From Armatimonadota bacterium (GTDB taxonomy: Bacteria; Armatimonadota; UBA10988), in the NCBI GenBank assembly GCA_016235455.1, contig JACRKZ010000063.1, forward strand, positions 1 through 41,785: DNA of 41,785 bases, read 5' to 3'. Shown piece by piece: positions 32,013-35,932 of the stretch (the first letter of the stretch is position 1; each line of letters starts with the position of its first letter). The translations under genes and the position numbers were made by a program. The notes below the pieces were generated by a model. The model worked only from the letters and a program-made list of their open reading frames with translations, was not told the DNA's origin and searched no databases.

Positions 32013-33569
32013 TCACCGCATCGCCCGCCGCACCGCCAGCAGCTTCGGCGACTGCTCGGGCGGCTGGCTCAGGTACTCCAACATGCCAAACCGGCCGTAC
32101 TTGCTGTAGGCGTCGCAGTGGATGAAGTTGCAGAACAGCCCGGCGCCAGCCTCGCGCCAGCCCTGCAAGTAGCGGTCGTAGAGCCCGCCCATGCGCGGGT
32201 CGCGGTTGGCCTGGTCGAACAGGCGGTTGAGCGCCTCGTCGTTCTGCCAGGCACCTACGCCGACCAGATGCTGGCCGCCTTCGTAGGCGATCAGCGTCTT
32301 GCCCTTCGAGGCGGCATACCGGGCCATCTGCTGCACCACGTCCACGGCCTGGGGCACGGCGCGGCTGGACAGCTCGGCAAACAGCGCGTCGAGCGTCAGC
32401 CCCGGCGTCTGCACGGCGGCCTGGTTGCGCGCGTTGCCCAGGTAGCCGCCGAAGTACGGCGCGATGGCCAGCGCGTCGTGGTGCGCCGCGGCCTCGCCCG
32501 TCTTGAGCAGGATGTTCTCGAACCACCACGGCCCCGCCGCCTGCCAGGCCAGCACGCGCACCAGCCGCGGCGCGGGGATCTCCTGCTCGCAGAGGGTCAT
32601 GATCTCGGTGCTGCGGCGGGCGTGGTACATGCCGCCGCTTTCCCACGGTCGCGCCCGGTCGCCCAGGCCCAAGGCCGCGCCTTGCGTTTGCGCGTGGCGA
32701 GTCTGCGGGTACTCCGCGTTCCAGACCTCGTTCGAGTACTCCACATACGCCCGCAGCTTGGGGTCGAGCAGGCGGCCGACCGAGCGCGCGAACAGCCGCA
32801 CATACTCATCATCGACCGTCCACGGAATGGAGAACCAGGCGTCGACGCCCAGCCGGTTGGCCAGCGAACACATGACCTCAACCGGCACGCCGCGGATCGA
32901 CCAGCGCGCGTCTTCGACCGTCGGCCGGTCGGCCCACGTCTTGGGCTGGGCGGCCAGCCGTGCATCGCCCTGGGTCAGGTTCTGCTCGGCCCAGTTCATG
33001 AAGCGCAGGCAGCGGTAGCCACGCAGTGAGTCGAGGAACAGCGGATGGAACAGCGGCTCCGCGCCAGCGCCGGCCGTGGTGACGTGGATGTCGCGCAGGT
33101 AGTCGGTGGGGTCGGTGGCGGTGATGGACAACGCCAGTCCGCCGCGGCTGGGGTCGACCTCCAGCTCATCGCGCCCGGCCGCGCCGCCGGTCCGGCGCCA
33201 GGCGCCCTCATAGGCCAGCGTACCGCGTCCCTTGTAGTCGACCACATAGCGCCCGGCGGGATAGGTGTTGGGCCGGTCCCAGAACATGAGCGTCCGCGCG
33301 ATCTGACCCGGTTGGAGCGACCGCACCCAGCCGTGGGCGTCGAGGTCCAGCGGGCGTTGGTCCTGCCAGACGCCCGGCGCGCCGGACAGCCAGGGCCGCG
33401 AGGACTTCATGGCGTCGACGAACGGATTGGCGGTACTCCAGTCACGGATGCTGGCCAGGTTGGTGCCGATGGCCATGGCCGGCGGCGGCTGTGCGGCGGC
33501 GCAACTGCCCAGGAGGATGGCCGAGACGACTGCCAGCAGGCGATGCGGGTACGGCCGGGCGAGGGGCAT
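32013..33569 (-). CDS. Secreted or lipoprotein putative glycoside hydrolase ('cellulose-binding protein'-like family)
   Basis: LLGSC lipobox-like. IGTNL...DWS...FVDAMK, LRFMNW, YVEYSNEVWN, AIAPYFG, AYEGGQH suggest a TIM barrel with two Glu residues. Confidence 0.65.
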   Translation of the reverse strand: MPLARPYPHRLLAVVSAILLGSCAAAQPPPAMAIGTNLASIRDWSTANPFVDAMKSSRPWLSGAPGVWQDQRPLDLDAHGWVRSLQPGQIARTLMFWDRPNTYPAGRYVVDYKGRGTLAYEGAWRRTGGAAGRDELEVDPSRGGLALSITATDPTDYLRDIHVTTAGAGAEPLFHPLFLDSLRGYRCLRFMNWAEQNLTQGDARLAAQPKTWADRPTVEDARWSIRGVPVEVMCSLANRLGVDAWFSIPWTVDDEYVRLFARSVGRLLDPKLRAYVEYSNEVWNAEYPQTRHAQTQGAALGLGDRARPWESGGMYHARRSTEIMTLCEQEIPAPRLVRVLAWQAAGPWWFENILLKTGEAAAHHDALAIAPYFGGYLGNARNQAAVQTPGLTLDALFAELSSRAVPQAVDVVQQMARYAASKGKTLIAYEGGQHLVGVGAWQNDEALNRLFDQANRDPRMGGLYDRYLQGWREAGAGLFCNFIHCDAYSKYGRFGMLEYLSQPPEQSPKLLAVRRAMR

Positions 33570-33602
33570 GGGTGGTCTCCTTCGCGGTCATGCGGCGGCA
33601 GC

Positions 33603-33710
33603 CGGACAGCCCCACTGTAGTCCCCCCGCGGGCGAGGGGACGGCTTTGAAGCCGACCGCGCGAGCGCCTCAAGCTCCCTCCCCGCTCGCGGGGAGGGCTG
33701 GGGTGGGGGC
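33603..33710. repeat. Direct repeat copy A with REP palindrome CTCCCTCCCCGCTCGCGGGGAGGGCTGGGGTGGGGG (family C)
   Basis: 33611-33710 aligns without gaps to 34681-34780, and 33674-33710 is identical to 34744-34780. Confidence 0.85.
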
Positions 33711-33816
33711 TGCCCACAGACACCGTCGTGTTCACTGGATAAGGTGGACCATTTGGGATGAACGTAAACCGCTGGACCGGCGAGGAGCCGTTCGGGGACC
33801 GCGGAACCTGTTGGCC

Positions 33817-34656
33817 ATGGTTCGGGTAGGGACACTGGTCTGGGCTGTCGCGACTCCCTCCCCGCGCGCGGGGAGGGCTGTGGCGGGGGCCGCGTTGCGA
33901 CCCATCGAAGCACTCGCCCCGGCAGATCTCCTCTACGCACCCGACGGCCAGCCCTATCGCGCTGGGCGCATCATCACCCGTCGCTACCAGGGCGAGATGG
34001 TCGCCCTGACCACCGGCGGAGACGCCTTGTGGGTCACGCCAGCCACTCAGGTCCTGGTTCGCTGGCGCCCCCGCCACCCGCGCGCGGTCTGCGACTGGGG
34101 CGGCTCGCCACTCGCCTCGTTAACCCGTCGCCAGGAGCTGCGCCGCGACGCCAATCGCGCCGAACGCACCCTCTGGGGCCGCCTGCGTGGTACGCAGATG
34201 GGCACCAAGTTTCGCCGACAGCACCCCATCGGGCCGTTCATCGCCGACTTCTACAGCCGTGCGGCACACCTGGTCGTCGAACTCGACGGCGACACCCACA
34301 GCACCACCGAAGCCCAGGCGCACGATGCCGCCAGGACCCTCTACATGGAGAGCCAAGGTCTTCTGGTTCTGCGCTTTGCCAACCACCAGGTGCTCACCGA
34401 CCTCGACGCGGTGTCTGCAGGCATCTTCGACGCCTGCCGCGATCGCATTGCCGGCCAGGAGAGTGTGGAGTGGGTGGCAGCGCGCGACCTTGCCGCCGGC
34501 GATACCGTCCTTGCCGGCTGGCCGCTCGGAGCGGCTGAGCTGCGTGCCGTCGCGGTGGAGCGTGCCGACGGTCTGGTCTGCCGCAGCGCTGCCAGTGGCA
34601 TCTCCCTGGCCACCCAGCATGGCTGCCTGCGGGCACCACAGTCTGAGGCGCGCTGA
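33817..34656 (+). CDS. DUF559 (Vsr-like) endonuclease nested in a degenerate intein/Hint domain
   Basis: DUF559 motifs LRRDANRAERTLW, KFRRQHPIGPFIADFY, LVVELDGDTH, HDAART, VLRFAN. Hint-like GTLV...PIEALAPAD...DG...YQGEMVAL...LWVTP before them and EWVAARDLAAGDTV after. Start codon uncertain. Confidence 0.8.
   Translation: MVRVGTLVWAVATPSPRAGRAVAGAALRPIEALAPADLLYAPDGQPYRAGRIITRRYQGEMVALTTGGDALWVTPATQVLVRWRPRHPRAVCDWGGSPLASLTRRQELRRDANRAERTLWGRLRGTQMGTKFRRQHPIGPFIADFYSRAAHLVVELDGDTHSTTEAQAHDAARTLYMESQGLLVLRFANHQVLTDLDAVSAGIFDACRDRIAGQESVEWVAARDLAAGDTVLAGWPLGAAELRAVAVERADGLVCRSAASGISLATQHGCLRAPQSEAR
33851..33928. repeat. Repeat copy B, inside the DUF559/Hint coding sequence
   Basis: Aligns without gaps to 34741-34818 (REP palindrome plus TTGCGACCCATCGAA.CA.TCGCCCCGGC.GATC). 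Confidence 0.85.
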
Positions 34657-34671
34657 ACGCCCACTTGCCCT

Positions 34672-34818
34672 CGGCCAGCCCCCCCTGTGGTCCCCCCGCG
34701 AGCGGGGGGACGGCTTCGGCGCGGACCCCGCGGGCCTGGCCGACTCCCTCCCCGCTCGCGGGGAGGGCTGGGGTGGGGGCCGTCTTGCGACCCATCGAAA
34801 CATTCGCCCCGGCGGATC
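34672..34818. repeat. Repeat copy C (composite of copies A and B)
   Basis: First ~109 nt match copy A and last 78 nt match copy B. Confidence 0.85.
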
Positions 34819-34885
34819 ACCGCTGCGCGCCTGGCGCCCAGCCCTCGCCTCGGAGTATCATCCCCCAACCAAGGATCACCCGACC

Positions 34886-35932
34886 ATGCGCAGCCTGACC
34901 CTCGTCGCCCTGCTTGCTAGCCTCACCGCTGCCCAACCGCCGGCCACCATCCGCGCCGACCAGCCCGGCGACCGCGCCGTCTACCAACGTGATGCCAGGG
35001 GCCACGCCGCGTTGCCCGTGGTCTGCACGCTGCCCGGCGATCCGGTCGAGGTGGTCGAGGTGCAGGCACAGAACCGCGCTACCGGGCAGCCCGTGGGCGA
35101 GTGGTTGGCGCTCGCCCTGACCGACGGCTCGTGGCGGGGCAAGCTGGTGCTGCCCACGGGTTGGTACAAGCTCGTGCTGCGCGCCAGGCGCGGGCCGGCC
35201 GTGGTCTCCGTGGGCGGTGTGGAGCATGTGGGCGTGGGCGAGGTGCTGATCACCTGCGGCCAGTCCAACTCGGCCAACCACGGTCAGCCGCCGCAGAGGG
35301 CGAGCGACGACCGCGTGTCGAGCCGCGACTTTGGGTCTGGCCGCTGGGCCCATGGCGACGATCCGCAGCCGGGCGCCACCGGCACCGGCGGTTCGCCGTG
35401 GGCGCTGCTCGGCGACCTGTTGGCCGACCGGCTCGATGCGCCGGTCGGACTGGTCTGCGTGGGTGTCGGTGGCACACCGGTGTCGTACTGGCTGCCCGGC
35501 CAGGCCGGCTATGCCCGCCTGAGGAGGGCGCTCGAACTCGTTGGCCCCCAGGGCGCTCGCGCGGTGCTGTGGCATCAGGGCGAGTCGGATTCCATCGCCG
35601 GCACCAGCGCCGATGAGTACGGGGCGCGGCTGCGCGCGACCATCGAGCAGTCGCGCCGCGACGGCGGCTGGGCCGTGCCGTGGGGCGTTGCCCTGGCCGC
35701 GTTCCATCCCGCCGCCGAGGCCACCGCCGAGCGCCAGGCCGCGGTGATCGCCGGGCAGCGCCGCGTCATCGCCGAGGTGCCGGACGTCTTCCTGGGCGCC
35801 GAGACCGACAGCTTCCACGAGCGCGGCATGTTGACCGACACGGTCCACTTCAACGCCAAGGGCTTGGCCGCCCATGCGCAGGGCTGGTTTGAGGCGCTGC
35901 TGCCACGGCTGGCCAAGCAGGAACGCGGCTGA
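34886..35932 (+). CDS. Secreted SGNH carbohydrate esterase (sialate O-acetylesterase/SASA-like)
   Basis: Signal MRSLTLVALLASLTAA. VGVGEVLITCGQSNS, VGGT, VLWHQGESD, DTVHF. Confidence 0.85.
   Translation: MRSLTLVALLASLTAAQPPATIRADQPGDRAVYQRDARGHAALPVVCTLPGDPVEVVEVQAQNRATGQPVGEWLALALTDGSWRGKLVLPTGWYKLVLRARRGPAVVSVGGVEHVGVGEVLITCGQSNSANHGQPPQRASDDRVSSRDFGSGRWAHGDDPQPGATGTGGSPWALLGDLLADRLDAPVGLVCVGVGGTPVSYWLPGQAGYARLRRALELVGPQGARAVLWHQGESDSIAGTSADEYGARLRATIEQSRRDGGWAVPWGVALAAFHPAAEATAERQAAVIAGQRRVIAEVPDVFLGAETDSFHERGMLTDTVHFNAKGLAAHAQGWFEALLPRLAKQERG

What the first reader, a model, noticed from the sequence alone, without database searches (positions are those of the whole stretch)
33817..34656. 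Free-standing DUF559 endonuclease nested inside a splicing-dead intein/Hint scaffold at a non-canonical site
Seen: the protein reads GTLV..., PIEALAPADLLYAPDG (33901), RRYQGEMVAL, LWVTPATQVL (34027), then an intact-looking DUF559/Vsr-like nuclease (~34126-34440), then EWVAARDLAAGDTV (34468) and a decayed tail. Established: these flanking motifs correspond to intein blocks A/N2, B (TxxH) and N4 (W..A..L..GD.V). Homing endonucleases normally sit after N4 and are mostly LAGLIDADG. Here the nuclease is PD-(D/E)xK-type and lies between block B and N4. The N-terminal Cys/Ser, block-B His (TPAT) and terminal His-Asn are all missing, and there is no extein. Inference: a host-less intein relic retained as a structural carrier for a nuclease, possibly the enzyme of a repeat-associated mobile unit.
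Basis: partly seen in the sequence, partly recalled or inferred. Interest (0 to 1): 0.82.

Follow-up and report, generated by a model that had tools for sequence, protein, structure and literature searches.

The report
Hostless dead intein keeping DUF559 nuclease
This is a stranded, splicing-dead copy of a self-splicing protein element that normally sits inside a DNA methyltransferase gene; it has lost its host gene and its splicing residues but still keeps an unusual nuclease largely intact.

Summary
Window 33817-34656 encodes a 279-aa protein. Its centre is a strong DUF559 domain (E 4e-30). Its flanks are homologous to intein (Hint) blocks A, N2, B, N4, F and G. Position 1 is Met, block B reads TPAT, the terminal His-Asn/+1 Cys read Ala-Pro/Gln, and no extein is detectable.

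Full-length relatives are ordinary-looking class-1 inteins. They sit in frame in motif I (DPT|CGSGTT) of large N6_N4 DNA methyltransferases in several phyla. So the window copy is a relic of that family, not a new kind of scaffold.

The family itself is unusual in three ways. Its nuclease is an in-frame DUF559 (Vsr fold). The nuclease lies between block B and N4, not after N4. The A-N2 loop carries two GC-rich hairpin modules whose stems recur across phyla.

Hostless copies arose many times. In them the Hint parts have decayed far more than the nuclease. That suggests selection kept the nuclease after the host gene was lost.

The same hairpins form about 20 REP-like copies in this genome and flank standalone DUF559 genes widely. 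A functional dependence between hairpins and nuclease is not shown.

This scan noted the hosted form before on other DNA (e1-3516025), and hairpin-ended DUF559 cassettes as well. None of my five literature searches found an in-frame DUF559 intein.

The parts
33610..33710 (+). Upstream REP-like composite repeat. It holds hairpin hp1 (33620-33641, imperfect) and hairpin hp2 (33676-33697, CCCTCCCCGCTCGCGGGGAGGG) plus a G-rich tail.
   Evidence: Direct repeat D2 with 34680-34780 at 83% identity; hairpins I8 and I9. The same composite occurs at about 17 other places in the genome.
33711..33816 (+). 106-nt spacer between the REP copy and the ORF start. No recognisable methyltransferase N-extein.
   Evidence: tblastn and extein HMMs found nothing here. 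DNA comparison with the N-extein junction of the same-family relative L084 scored no better than shuffles: 20 against a mean of 16.8 and a maximum of 26.
33817..33849 (+). Intein block A remnant, MVRVGTLVWAV. An ATG (Met) stands where hosted relatives have the nucleophile Cys1.
   Evidence: Alignment A1; junctions of hosted relatives read DPT|C(V/L)RKGT.
33851..33894 (+). A-N2 loop holding one hp2-type hairpin (33856-33877, CCCTCCCCGCGCGCGGGGAGGG), translated as PSPRAGRA.
   Evidence: Family members from other phyla carry hp1 and/or hp2 modules in the same loop.
33895..34059 (+). Hint N2 to block B. N2 reads LRPIEALAPADLLYAPDG. Block B reads T-P-A-T at 34036-34047, so its His is lost.
   Evidence: A1; profile match to KlbA and RecA inteins; strands in the AlphaFold model. 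The window keeps 14 of 23 strongly conserved columns.
33997..33999 (+). Alternative ATG start (Met61), used by the database gene call P0002 (219 aa).
34060..34464 (+). Nuclease module: a linker (RWRPRHPRAVCDWGGSP...) and the DUF559 core at 34126-34437. Family-invariant residues E155, D157, G158, H161, D170 and R173 are present.
   Evidence: Pfam E 4.3e-30; PDB 3hrl at E 4e-29 by profile and TM 0.88 by fold; I-Bth0305I at TM about 0.8. The window keeps 39 of 44 strongly conserved columns.
34465..34518 (+). Hint block N4, VEWVAARDLAAGDTVLAG.
   Evidence: A1 near-invariant W219, A222, L225, D229, V231 and G234. The profile aligns this stretch to RecA mini-intein residues 80 onward.
34519..34656 (+). 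Decayed blocks F and G plus the stop codon. The family-invariant Cys270 is kept, but His-Asn/+1 Cys are replaced by Ala-Pro/Gln.
   Evidence: A1. N4 through G together keep 8 of 20 strongly conserved columns.
34680..34845 (+). Downstream REP-like composite (hp1 34690-34711, hp2 34746-34767), followed directly by an echo of the element's own N2 start (reads LRPIETFAPAD...).
   Evidence: Direct repeats D2 (83%) and D1 (33851-33955 against 34741-34845, 86%). Protein-level echo at 34737-34856: 58% identity to aa 11-50, E 1.2e-5.

Best explanation
The locus is a stranded (hostless) copy of a mobile class-1 intein family. The normal home of that family is motif I (DPT|CGSGTT) of large N6_N4 DNA methyltransferases. 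Its homing nuclease is an in-frame DUF559 (Vsr-fold) domain, placed between Hint blocks B and N4.

In this genome the methyltransferase is gone. The element lies in a 1.3-kb intergenic gap between an unnamed gene and a sialate-esterase-like gene, among REP-like hairpin repeats. With no exteins to join, splicing is both impossible and unnecessary: position 1 is Met, and the block B His, the terminal His-Asn and the +1 Cys are all lost. The Hint parts are drifting.

The nuclease module has stayed close to the family consensus. It was therefore probably kept by selection for much of the time since host loss, as a free-standing and most likely selfish DUF559 endonuclease gene.

Shown: homology, domain order, lost residues, absence of exteins, and the uneven decay. 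Inferred: that the nuclease is still active, that in hosted relatives it homes to intein-free methyltransferase alleles, and how the host gene was lost.
For: Family and host gene:
- Full-length homologs at 33-47% identity over 75-97% of the protein.
- Single open frames of N-extein, intein and C-extein in L007 (1169 aa; Pfam N6_N4_Mtase 3.8e-26, DUF559 3.4e-29, Intein_splicing 2.1e-5) and in L094, L096, L097, L098 and L100.
- The same junctions occur in a same-family genome (G004) and a same-phylum genome (G027).

Hint fold and nuclease position.

No exteins here.

Repeated host loss: in a 30-row tree the hostless label needs 10 changes, equal to the shuffled mean of about 10. Hostless rows have longer terminal branches (medians 0.82 against 0.32, my calculation).

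A graded series of host decay exists. P0009, P0006 and P0005 still end in truncated extein remnants.

Uneven decay, as identity to the hosted consensus for Hint-N / DUF559 / Hint-C:
- hosted rows: 0.67 / 0.67 / 0.66
- 14 hostless rows: 0.41 / 0.59 / 0.39
- window, strongly conserved columns: 39/44 in DUF559 against 22/43 in Hint (Fisher p 1.5e-4).

Copy number and population: the gene is single-copy in the genome. In the population sampled, one contig covers 33686-34770 with no differences and at the same depth as the flanks.
Against: - No expression data: no RNA run holds the stretch, and no promoter-like or terminator-like site was found.
- The start codon is uncertain (Met1 or Met61), and no clear ribosome-binding site precedes Met1 (my reading).
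- In a 69% G+C genome long open frames arise by chance (35 ORFs of 40 aa or more overlap the 4 kb listed). The intact frame is therefore weak evidence.
- The consensus used was built from hosted rows, so absolute values favour hosted rows. Only the contrast between regions is informative, and a nuclease core might be intrinsically slower to change.
- The window has one of the longer terminal branches (1.22) and an atypical amino-acid composition, which also fits a decaying pseudogene.
- No syntenic relative with an empty site could be found. Loss of the host gene in place cannot be told apart from arrival of the intein alone.
Confidence: 0.62

Rival explanations
1. Plain pseudogene. The whole element, nuclease included, is dead DNA left after decay of a methyltransferase gene. 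The better-preserved DUF559 core only reflects a slower intrinsic rate or chance.
For: Long terminal branch and skewed composition. All splice residues lost. No promoter, terminator or clear ribosome-binding site. Open frames are cheap at 69% G+C. The database gene call is shorter than the Hint-to-Hint frame.
Against: In hosted inteins the three regions are equally conserved (0.67 / 0.67 / 0.66). In 14 hostless copies from unrelated lineages the nuclease stays at 0.59 while Hint falls to about 0.40. The window keeps 39/44 against 22/43 conserved columns. AT-rich hostless copies (L003, L011) also keep long open frames.
Confidence: 0.25
2. Active hairpin-bounded mobile cassette. The intein-sized unit, bracketed by hp1/hp2 hairpins, is itself the mobile element. 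It entered this intergenic site using the hairpins, as proposed for the smaller hairpin-ended DUF559 cassettes.
For: Hairpins of the same two types lie just outside both ends, and a 165-nt repeat of the element's own 5' part follows its 3' end. A hairpin lies within 400 nt upstream of block A in 5 of 6 hostless loci against 0 of 11 hosted loci. Hairpins are 10-15 times enriched within 200 nt of 69 standalone DUF559 genes. Earlier scan notes describe such cassettes (unchecked).
Against: There is one copy in the genome. No contig joins across an empty site. The flanking repeats are only 83-86% alike, so they are old. Hostless copies do not form a clade. REP-type repeats gather in intergenic DNA anyway, which alone could explain the contrast between hostless and hosted loci.
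Confidence: 0.1
3. Domesticated intein-derived nuclease, analogous to yeast HO. The dead Hint domain is kept as a DNA-binding or scaffold domain of a nuclease that now serves the cell.
For: All 14 hostless rows keep an open frame through the C-terminal Hint part and stop within about 12 residues of the block G position. N4 residues are still well conserved in the window. The model packs both Hint halves into one domain.
Against: Hint columns decay strongly in hostless copies. The locus is not conserved in the relatives searched: no match in the same-genus genome, which is only 80% complete, and no synteny. My set was chosen for full-length matches, so truncated copies were excluded by design.
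Confidence: 0.08

Closest known systems
Class-1 inteins with a nested homing endonuclease (e.g. Mtu RecA intein PI-MtuI, PI-SceI)
   Same: Hint fold, the block order A-N2-B-N4-F-G, and a nuclease nested in frame. Hosted relatives have Cys1, TxxH, and His-Asn followed by Cys.
   Different: The nuclease is DUF559 (Vsr fold), not LAGLIDADG or HNH. It lies between block B and N4 (RecA mini-intein residues 78/80) rather than after N4; the canonical position is recalled from the intein literature and comes from no call. The A-N2 loop carries DNA hairpin modules. The window copy has no exteins and no splice residues.
Vsr-like / EDxHD homing endonucleases (I-Bth0305I). Dassa 2009, PMC2677866: abstract seen in the search listing. 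Taylor 2011, PMC3239194: abstract seen in the search listing.
   Same: Same nuclease fold (3r3p, TM about 0.8) and an association with inteins and introns.
   Different: Those are free-standing genes between split-intein halves or inside group I introns. In the preprint 10.1101/2025.01.02.630785 (passages read) they are encoded antisense within inteins. That preprint lists no in-frame Vsr-like intein nuclease.
DUF559 family (PF04480; structure 3hrl)
   Same: Full-length domain match with the conserved residues present.
   Different: Typical members are small standalone genes. Here the domain is nested in a dead Hint domain. The function of DUF559 is uncharacterised: it is in no title or abstract among the 25 papers that mention it.
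Yeast HO endonuclease (an intein-derived nuclease without a host protein). Mentioned in a passage of 10.1101/2025.01.02.630785; details recalled.
   Same: A hostless intein descendant that keeps its nuclease and no longer splices.
   Different: HO carries a LAGLIDADG nuclease, is eukaryotic, and has a proven cellular role. Here the Hint parts are decaying and no cellular role is indicated.
REP/RAYT (REPIN) systems and Rickettsia palindromic elements (recalled; no paper read here)
   Same: Dispersed GC-rich hairpin repeats, a single-copy nuclease gene bracketed by them, and palindromic modules translated in frame inside a protein loop.
   Different: The nuclease is not a HUH transposase. The hairpins also occur in related genomes without DUF559. 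Mobility is not shown.

Membership tests
Functional (splicing) class-1 intein | Hint fold with blocks A, N2, B, N4, F and G in order | tested here: met
   Profile hits to KlbA and RecA inteins. Foldseek hits to RecA, RadA, BIL and hedgehog Hint domains at TM 0.6-0.74. Alignment A1. The model was built with an alignment that includes true inteins.
Functional (splicing) class-1 intein | Nucleophile (Cys/Ser/Thr) at intein position 1 | tested here: not met
   Met (ATG 33817) aligns with Cys1 of hosted relatives.
Functional (splicing) class-1 intein | Block B TxxH | tested here: not met
   T74-P-A-T77; the His is replaced by Thr.
Functional (splicing) class-1 intein | C-terminal His-Asn followed by Cys/Ser/Thr | tested here: not met
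   Ala273-Pro274-Gln275 align with His-Asn-Cys.
Functional (splicing) class-1 intein | In-frame insertion in a host protein (exteins on both sides) | tested here: not met
   No extein match on the contig. A stop codon follows 5 codons after the block G position. REP repeats lie on both sides.
Methyltransferase motif-I intein family with DUF559 (defined here by the hosted homologs) | Full-length homology including the nuclease between block B and N4 and a hairpin module in the A-N2 loop | tested here: met
   In the tree the window is sister to hostless P0003, inside the family.
DUF559 (PF04480) | HMM score above the curated cut-off over the whole domain | tested here: met
   104.2 bits against a cut-off of 20.6, profile positions 6-108 of 109.
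DUF559 (PF04480) | Family-invariant acidic and His residues (E-x-D-G-x-x-H ... D..R) | tested here: met
   E155, D157, G158, H161, D170 and R173 are invariant in A1 and present in the window. Their catalytic role is inferred from the fold, not tested.
Homing endonuclease (functional sense) | Cleaves the intein-free allele at the insertion site | not testable with these tools
   The genome holds only distant N6_N4 methyltransferases (25-29% identity; the motif I region on contig C97) and no close host allele.
REP/RAYT-like or hairpin-ended DUF559 cassette | Nuclease gene bracketed by the family's hairpin repeats | tested here: met
   hp1 and hp2 lie on both sides and hp2 lies inside.
REP/RAYT-like or hairpin-ended DUF559 cassette | Evidence of mobility or of dependence of the repeats on the nuclease | tested here: not met
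   Single copy. No empty-site joint. Exact hp2 in 11 of 61 related genomes, of which 6 of 11 have a DUF559 match against 22 of 50 genomes without hp2. G046, G006 and G041 have hp2 but no PF04480 match.

The most novel reading that the evidence does not exclude
DUF559 nucleases and the two conserved hairpin modules (TCCCCCCG-N4-CGGGGGGA and CCCTCCCCG-N4-CGGGGAGGG) form one selfish system, comparable to REP/RAYT. The hairpins would be the nuclease's DNA substrates or element ends. The system would travel in several vehicles: standalone genes, in-frame cassettes, and this methyltransferase intein. The window gene would then be the only nuclease serving about 20 REP-like copies in this genome, which would explain why it outlived both its host gene and its splicing domain.
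Probability: 0.15. Interest if true: 0.85.

Novelty: new variant of a known kind. Interest (0 to 1): 0.55.

Why it matters
Intein nucleases are taken to be LAGLIDADG or HNH domains sitting at one fixed place in the Hint fold. A recent survey (10.1101/2025.01.02.630785, passages read) knows Vsr-like nucleases only beside split inteins or encoded antisense.

This family differs in three respects. A Vsr-fold DUF559 domain is translated in frame. It sits at a second permissive site, between block B and N4. A further loop tolerates variable numbers of DNA hairpin modules. Both sites are candidate insertion points for intein engineering.

The repeated survival of the nuclease after loss of host gene and splicing suggests one way free-standing nuclease genes can descend from inteins in bacteria. 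It also gives the uncharacterised DUF559 family a testable substrate: methyltransferase motif-I DNA, and possibly the hairpins.

The window copy itself is an old relic. Its value is mainly as evidence for that history.

Tried and rejected
- Pfam and NCBIfam on the window protein alone gave no Hint or intein hit. The Hint assignment rests on homologs, profile and fold.
- Extein remnants were searched three ways and none was found. By eye, other frames at 33760-33816 and 34620-34650 loosely resemble the junction motifs. I rejected this as unsupported.
- Empty-site comparison failed. The upstream gene has a 71% ortholog in G002, but with different neighbours and no hairpins. The downstream gene has no syntenic match.
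- The same-genus genome G001 (80% complete) had no match. It is too incomplete to support a conclusion.
- The promoter and terminator scan found 0 sites. This is uninformative for this organism.
- Sequencing runs: no RNA holder is listed. Four DNA runs of one groundwater study hold the stretch. Laid contigs break at the REP copies and show no joint across the element.
- Viral contigs: 0 of 15 relatives cover the Hint flanks.
- The co-occurrence test of the exact hp2 pattern with DUF559 across 61 related genomes showed no association. The pattern was exact, so variant stems were missed.
- A first six-frame HMM search timed out and was rerun with lighter filters.
- Supplements of the cited papers were not seen. 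The intein tables there might list this family.
Full report
WHAT IS THERE

Window 33817-34656 (+) translates without a stop into 279 residues. It lies inside a longer open frame, 33409-34656. The genome has 69% G+C, and 35 ORFs of 40 aa or more overlap the 4 kb around the site. An open frame alone therefore means little here.

The centre of the protein (aa 104-207, nt 34126-34437) is a full DUF559 domain: E 4.3e-30, 104 bits against a cut-off of 20.6. It is the only PF04480 match in the 6.5-Mb assembly. No Hint or intein model matches the window protein by itself.

The element fills most of a 1.3-kb gap. On one side is the start of a minus-strand gene with no Pfam match (32013-33569). On the other is a SASA-type esterase gene starting at 34886.

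THE FLANKS ARE INTEIN-DERIVED

A search of the large protein collection gave 57 hits at E<=0.001 among 8000 scored candidates. Fourteen of them, 251-406 aa long, cover 63-97% of the query at 33-47% identity, flanks included.

Aligned (A1), they show this order:
- C(V/L)RKGT..W (block A)
- a variable Pro/Gly-rich insert
- L.PIE.L.PGD.V..HDG (N2)
- LWLT.DH.VL (block B, TxxH)
- the DUF559 module
- W..A..L.PGD.VF (N4)
- EEVYDLEVE..HSFLTEVCAVHN (blocks F and G)

Several then continue with CGSGTTAY.AE.WGRRW. Scanned one by one, 15 of 15 members hit DUF559, 5 of 15 hit Intein_splicing, 1 of 15 hits Hint_2 and 1 of 15 hits N6_N4_Mtase.

A profile of A1 finds the following in the PDB:
- the DUF559 structure 3hrl, at 4e-29
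- the Mja KlbA intein, at 8.6e-6, in two pieces: profile 53-89 to residues 71-106, and profile 226-276 to residues 113-165
- Mtu RecA mini-inteins, at 2e-4 to 1e-3: profile 67-91 to residues 55-78, and profile 227-285 to residues 80-141

So the nuclease module is inserted between block B and N4. It is not at the usual endonuclease site after N4; that usual site is recalled from the intein literature and comes from no call.

An AlphaFold model of the window protein built with A1 (mean pLDDT 80.8, pTM 0.57) matches several solved structures:
- 3hrl, target TM 0.88
- the I-Bth0305I catalytic domain, about 0.8
- across the insertion: Mtu RecA intein 0.66, a bacterial intein-like domain 0.74, the hedgehog Hint domain 0.68

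The model leans on an alignment that contains real inteins.

THE FAMILY'S NORMAL HOME

DNA of relatives was fetched from genome and metagenome collections and from kin genomes.

In L007 (Leptospiraceae MAG) one 1169-aa frame reads N-extein, then intein, then C-extein. Its Pfam hits are N6_N4_Mtase 3.8e-26, DUF559 3.4e-29 and Intein_splicing 2.1e-5.

L094, L096, L097, L098 and L100 are likewise intact on both sides. L004 (Nitrospira), L006 and L008 are in frame at the N-extein junction. L084 (G004, same family as the window's genome) is as well. L005, L017, L083 (G027, same phylum) and L095 have the C-extein.

The junction is always ...LMTTDPGDLV.DPT | C(V/L)RKGT ... VHN | CGSGTTA.VAE.WGRRW. 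This is motif I of the methyltransferase.

THE WINDOW COPY IS A HOSTLESS RELIC

In A1 the window has:
- Met where relatives have Cys1
- T74-P-A-T77 for TxxH
- Ala273-Pro274-Gln275 for His-Asn-Cys

A stop codon follows five codons later.

No extein is detectable. tblastn with exteins from four loci hits only distant methyltransferases on other contigs, at 25-29% identity. HMMs of the 45 residues next to each junction find nothing at 33570-34900. The DNA upstream of block A resembles the junction of the same-family relative no more than shuffled sequence does.

Other hostless copies exist: L003, L009, L010, L011, L099, P0003, P0007, P0010, P0011, P0012 and P0014. Intermediates such as P0009, P0006 and P0005 still end in truncated extein remnants. 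L099 also has Met at position 1.

HOW THE HOSTLESS COPIES EVOLVED

I built a maximum-likelihood tree of 30 family rows. Sixteen had a recognisable junction motif and fourteen had none. The labels were set by a regular expression. As a result Caldithrix P0018, which keeps its junction residues but has only about 20-residue flanks, counts as hosted. P0009 and P0005, which have remnants, count as hostless.

On this tree the hostless label needs 10 changes. That equals the shuffled mean of about 10. Host loss was therefore repeated and independent.

The window is sister to hostless P0003 (support 99/97). Terminal branches are longer in hostless rows: medians 0.82 against 0.32, my calculation. The window's branch is 1.22.

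Identity to a consensus built from the hosted rows, for Hint-N / DUF559 / Hint-C:
- hosted rows: 0.67 / 0.67 / 0.66
- hostless rows: 0.41 / 0.59 / 0.39

At columns conserved in at least 80% of hosted rows, the window keeps 14/23, 39/44 and 8/20. DUF559 against the pooled Hint columns gives Fisher p 1.5e-4.

The consensus favours hosted rows, so only the contrast between regions counts. That contrast says the splicing domain was released from constraint while the nuclease was not, at least for much of the time since host loss.

This supports 'the nuclease was retained'. It does not support 'the Hint domain was retained as a carrier'. One point does favour a carrier role: every hostless row keeps its frame open to about the block G position. 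My set was chosen for full-length matches, however, which biases that observation.

THE REPEATS

The ORF is bracketed by two copies of a composite repeat (33610-33710 and 34680-34780, 83% alike). Each copy holds hairpin hp1 (GTCCCCCCGCGAGCGGGGGGAC) and hairpin hp2 (CCCTCCCCGCTCGCGGGGAGGG). A third hp2 lies inside the ORF, in the A-N2 loop (33856-33877).

The 3' copy is followed directly by an echo of the element's own N2 start. Repeat D1, 33851-33955 against 34741-34845, is 86% alike. The echo reads LRPIETFAPAD and matches at 58% identity, E 1.2e-5.

The arrangement looks like the remains of a partial tandem duplication, or of recombination through the hairpins. At 14-17% divergence it is old.

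The genome has 20 hp2 sites, mostly as the same hp1-hp2 composite in intergenic DNA.

The same two stems occur in the A-N2 loop of hosted and hostless family members from Nitrospirota, Spirochaetota, Chloroflexota and Hydrogenedentota and in metagenome loci, with varying loops and copy numbers.

In 69 standalone DUF559 loci from many phyla, perfect GC-rich hairpins (stem of 8 or more, loop 3-9) number 44 in the 200 nt upstream and 34 in the 200 nt downstream. That is 3.3 and 2.6 per kb, against a typical rate of about 0.2 per kb (0 to 0.5 per 200-nt bin) farther away. Of the 37 loci printed, 25 have at least one, nearly all of the CCCTCTCCC...GGGAGAGGG type.

Evidence against a strict dependence of the hairpins on the nuclease:
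- Exact hp2 occurs in 11 of 61 related genomes.
- DUF559 matches are found in 6 of those 11, and in 22 of the other 50.
- G046 (100% complete, 6 copies), G006 and G041 have hp2 but no PF04480 match.

Hostless loci have a hairpin within 400 nt upstream of block A in 5 of 6 cases, against 0 of 11 hosted loci. REP-type repeats settle in intergenic DNA anyway, so this contrast does not discriminate.

POPULATION AND EXPRESSION

Four DNA runs of one groundwater study hold the stretch; none is RNA. Their contigs break at the REP copies. One contig covers 33686-34770 with no differences and at the depth of the flanks. No contig joins across the element.

No promoter-like or terminator-like site was found. 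The database gene call starts at Met61.

LITERATURE

- 'intein' with 'DUF559' finds one paper (PMC9403480, passages read). It mentions a DUF559 gene only in passing.
- 'DUF559' alone finds 25 papers, none with the term in the title or abstract.
[quoted passage not shown] It names no in-frame Vsr/DUF559 nuclease.
- Inteins in phage methylases (PMC9957025, passages read) carry LAGLIDADG nucleases.
- Supplements were not available.

Earlier notes of this scan describe the hosted form in another genome (e1-3516025) and hairpin-ended DUF559 cassettes translated inside housekeeping genes (e1-3028868 and others). I had measured the hairpin enrichment before reading them. They are unchecked AI notes.

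VERDICT

The locus is an old, hostless, splicing-dead copy of a methyltransferase intein. The family's peculiar features are inherited: an in-frame DUF559 nuclease, its position between block B and N4, and the hairpin-bearing loop.

The best-supported reading is that the nuclease outlived host gene and splicing domain under selection (0.62). A fully dead pseudogene remains possible (0.25).

The boldest reading still open is that DUF559 and the hairpins form a REP/RAYT-like system, with this gene as its only nuclease in the genome (about 0.15).

Noticed in passing
L012-L082 (standalone DUF559 loci); window 33610-33710 and 34680-34780: GC-rich hairpins with a pyrimidine-only 5' arm (CCCTCTCCC / CCCCTCCC / CCTCCCCC ... 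complementary purine arm) are 10-15 times enriched within 200 nt on both sides of standalone DUF559 genes in many phyla. Counts: 44 and 34 hairpins in 69 loci.
   Followed up: partly
L083 (G027) and L005, A-N2 loop of the intein: In 2 of 11 hosted loci the N-extein plus block A is in a different frame from the rest of the intein. The frame change sits in a C/G homopolymer run of a hairpin arm: G8 instead of G4 in L083, and C5 against G6 in L005. It could be sequencing error, slippage (an on/off switch of the methyltransferase), or a natural split right after block A.
   Followed up: partly
G000 contigs C56, C88, C151, C173 (near 8180, 74969, 70401, 8192): Four copies of the hp1-hp2 repeat share longer conserved flanks on both sides. 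After hp2 they read GCGAC(T/C)CCATC..., resembling the window's GCGACCCATCGAA (the LRPIE codons). This may be a larger repeat unit or further N2 echoes.
   Followed up: no
L095 and L018: The same intein type sits in a second kind of methyltransferase, with C-extein CGSGTT.AVAE.LGRRW..DLGR. This suggests the intein has moved between related host genes.
   Followed up: no
L017 (Planctomycetia MAG): A locus starts right after a tRNA-like stretch with the DUF559 module, N4, a hairpin insert and blocks F and G, then an intact C-extein. There is no N-terminal intein half or N-extein. It is a truncated or possibly split arrangement.
   Followed up: no
L009, L010, L017, L095: Additional hairpin-module inserts lie between N4 and block F. 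The intein therefore tolerates these modules in a second loop.
   Followed up: no
window 32013-33569 (-): A 518-aa protein with a signal-peptide-like N-terminus has no Pfam match at E<=0.001. It has a 71% ortholog in a same-family genome.
   Followed up: no
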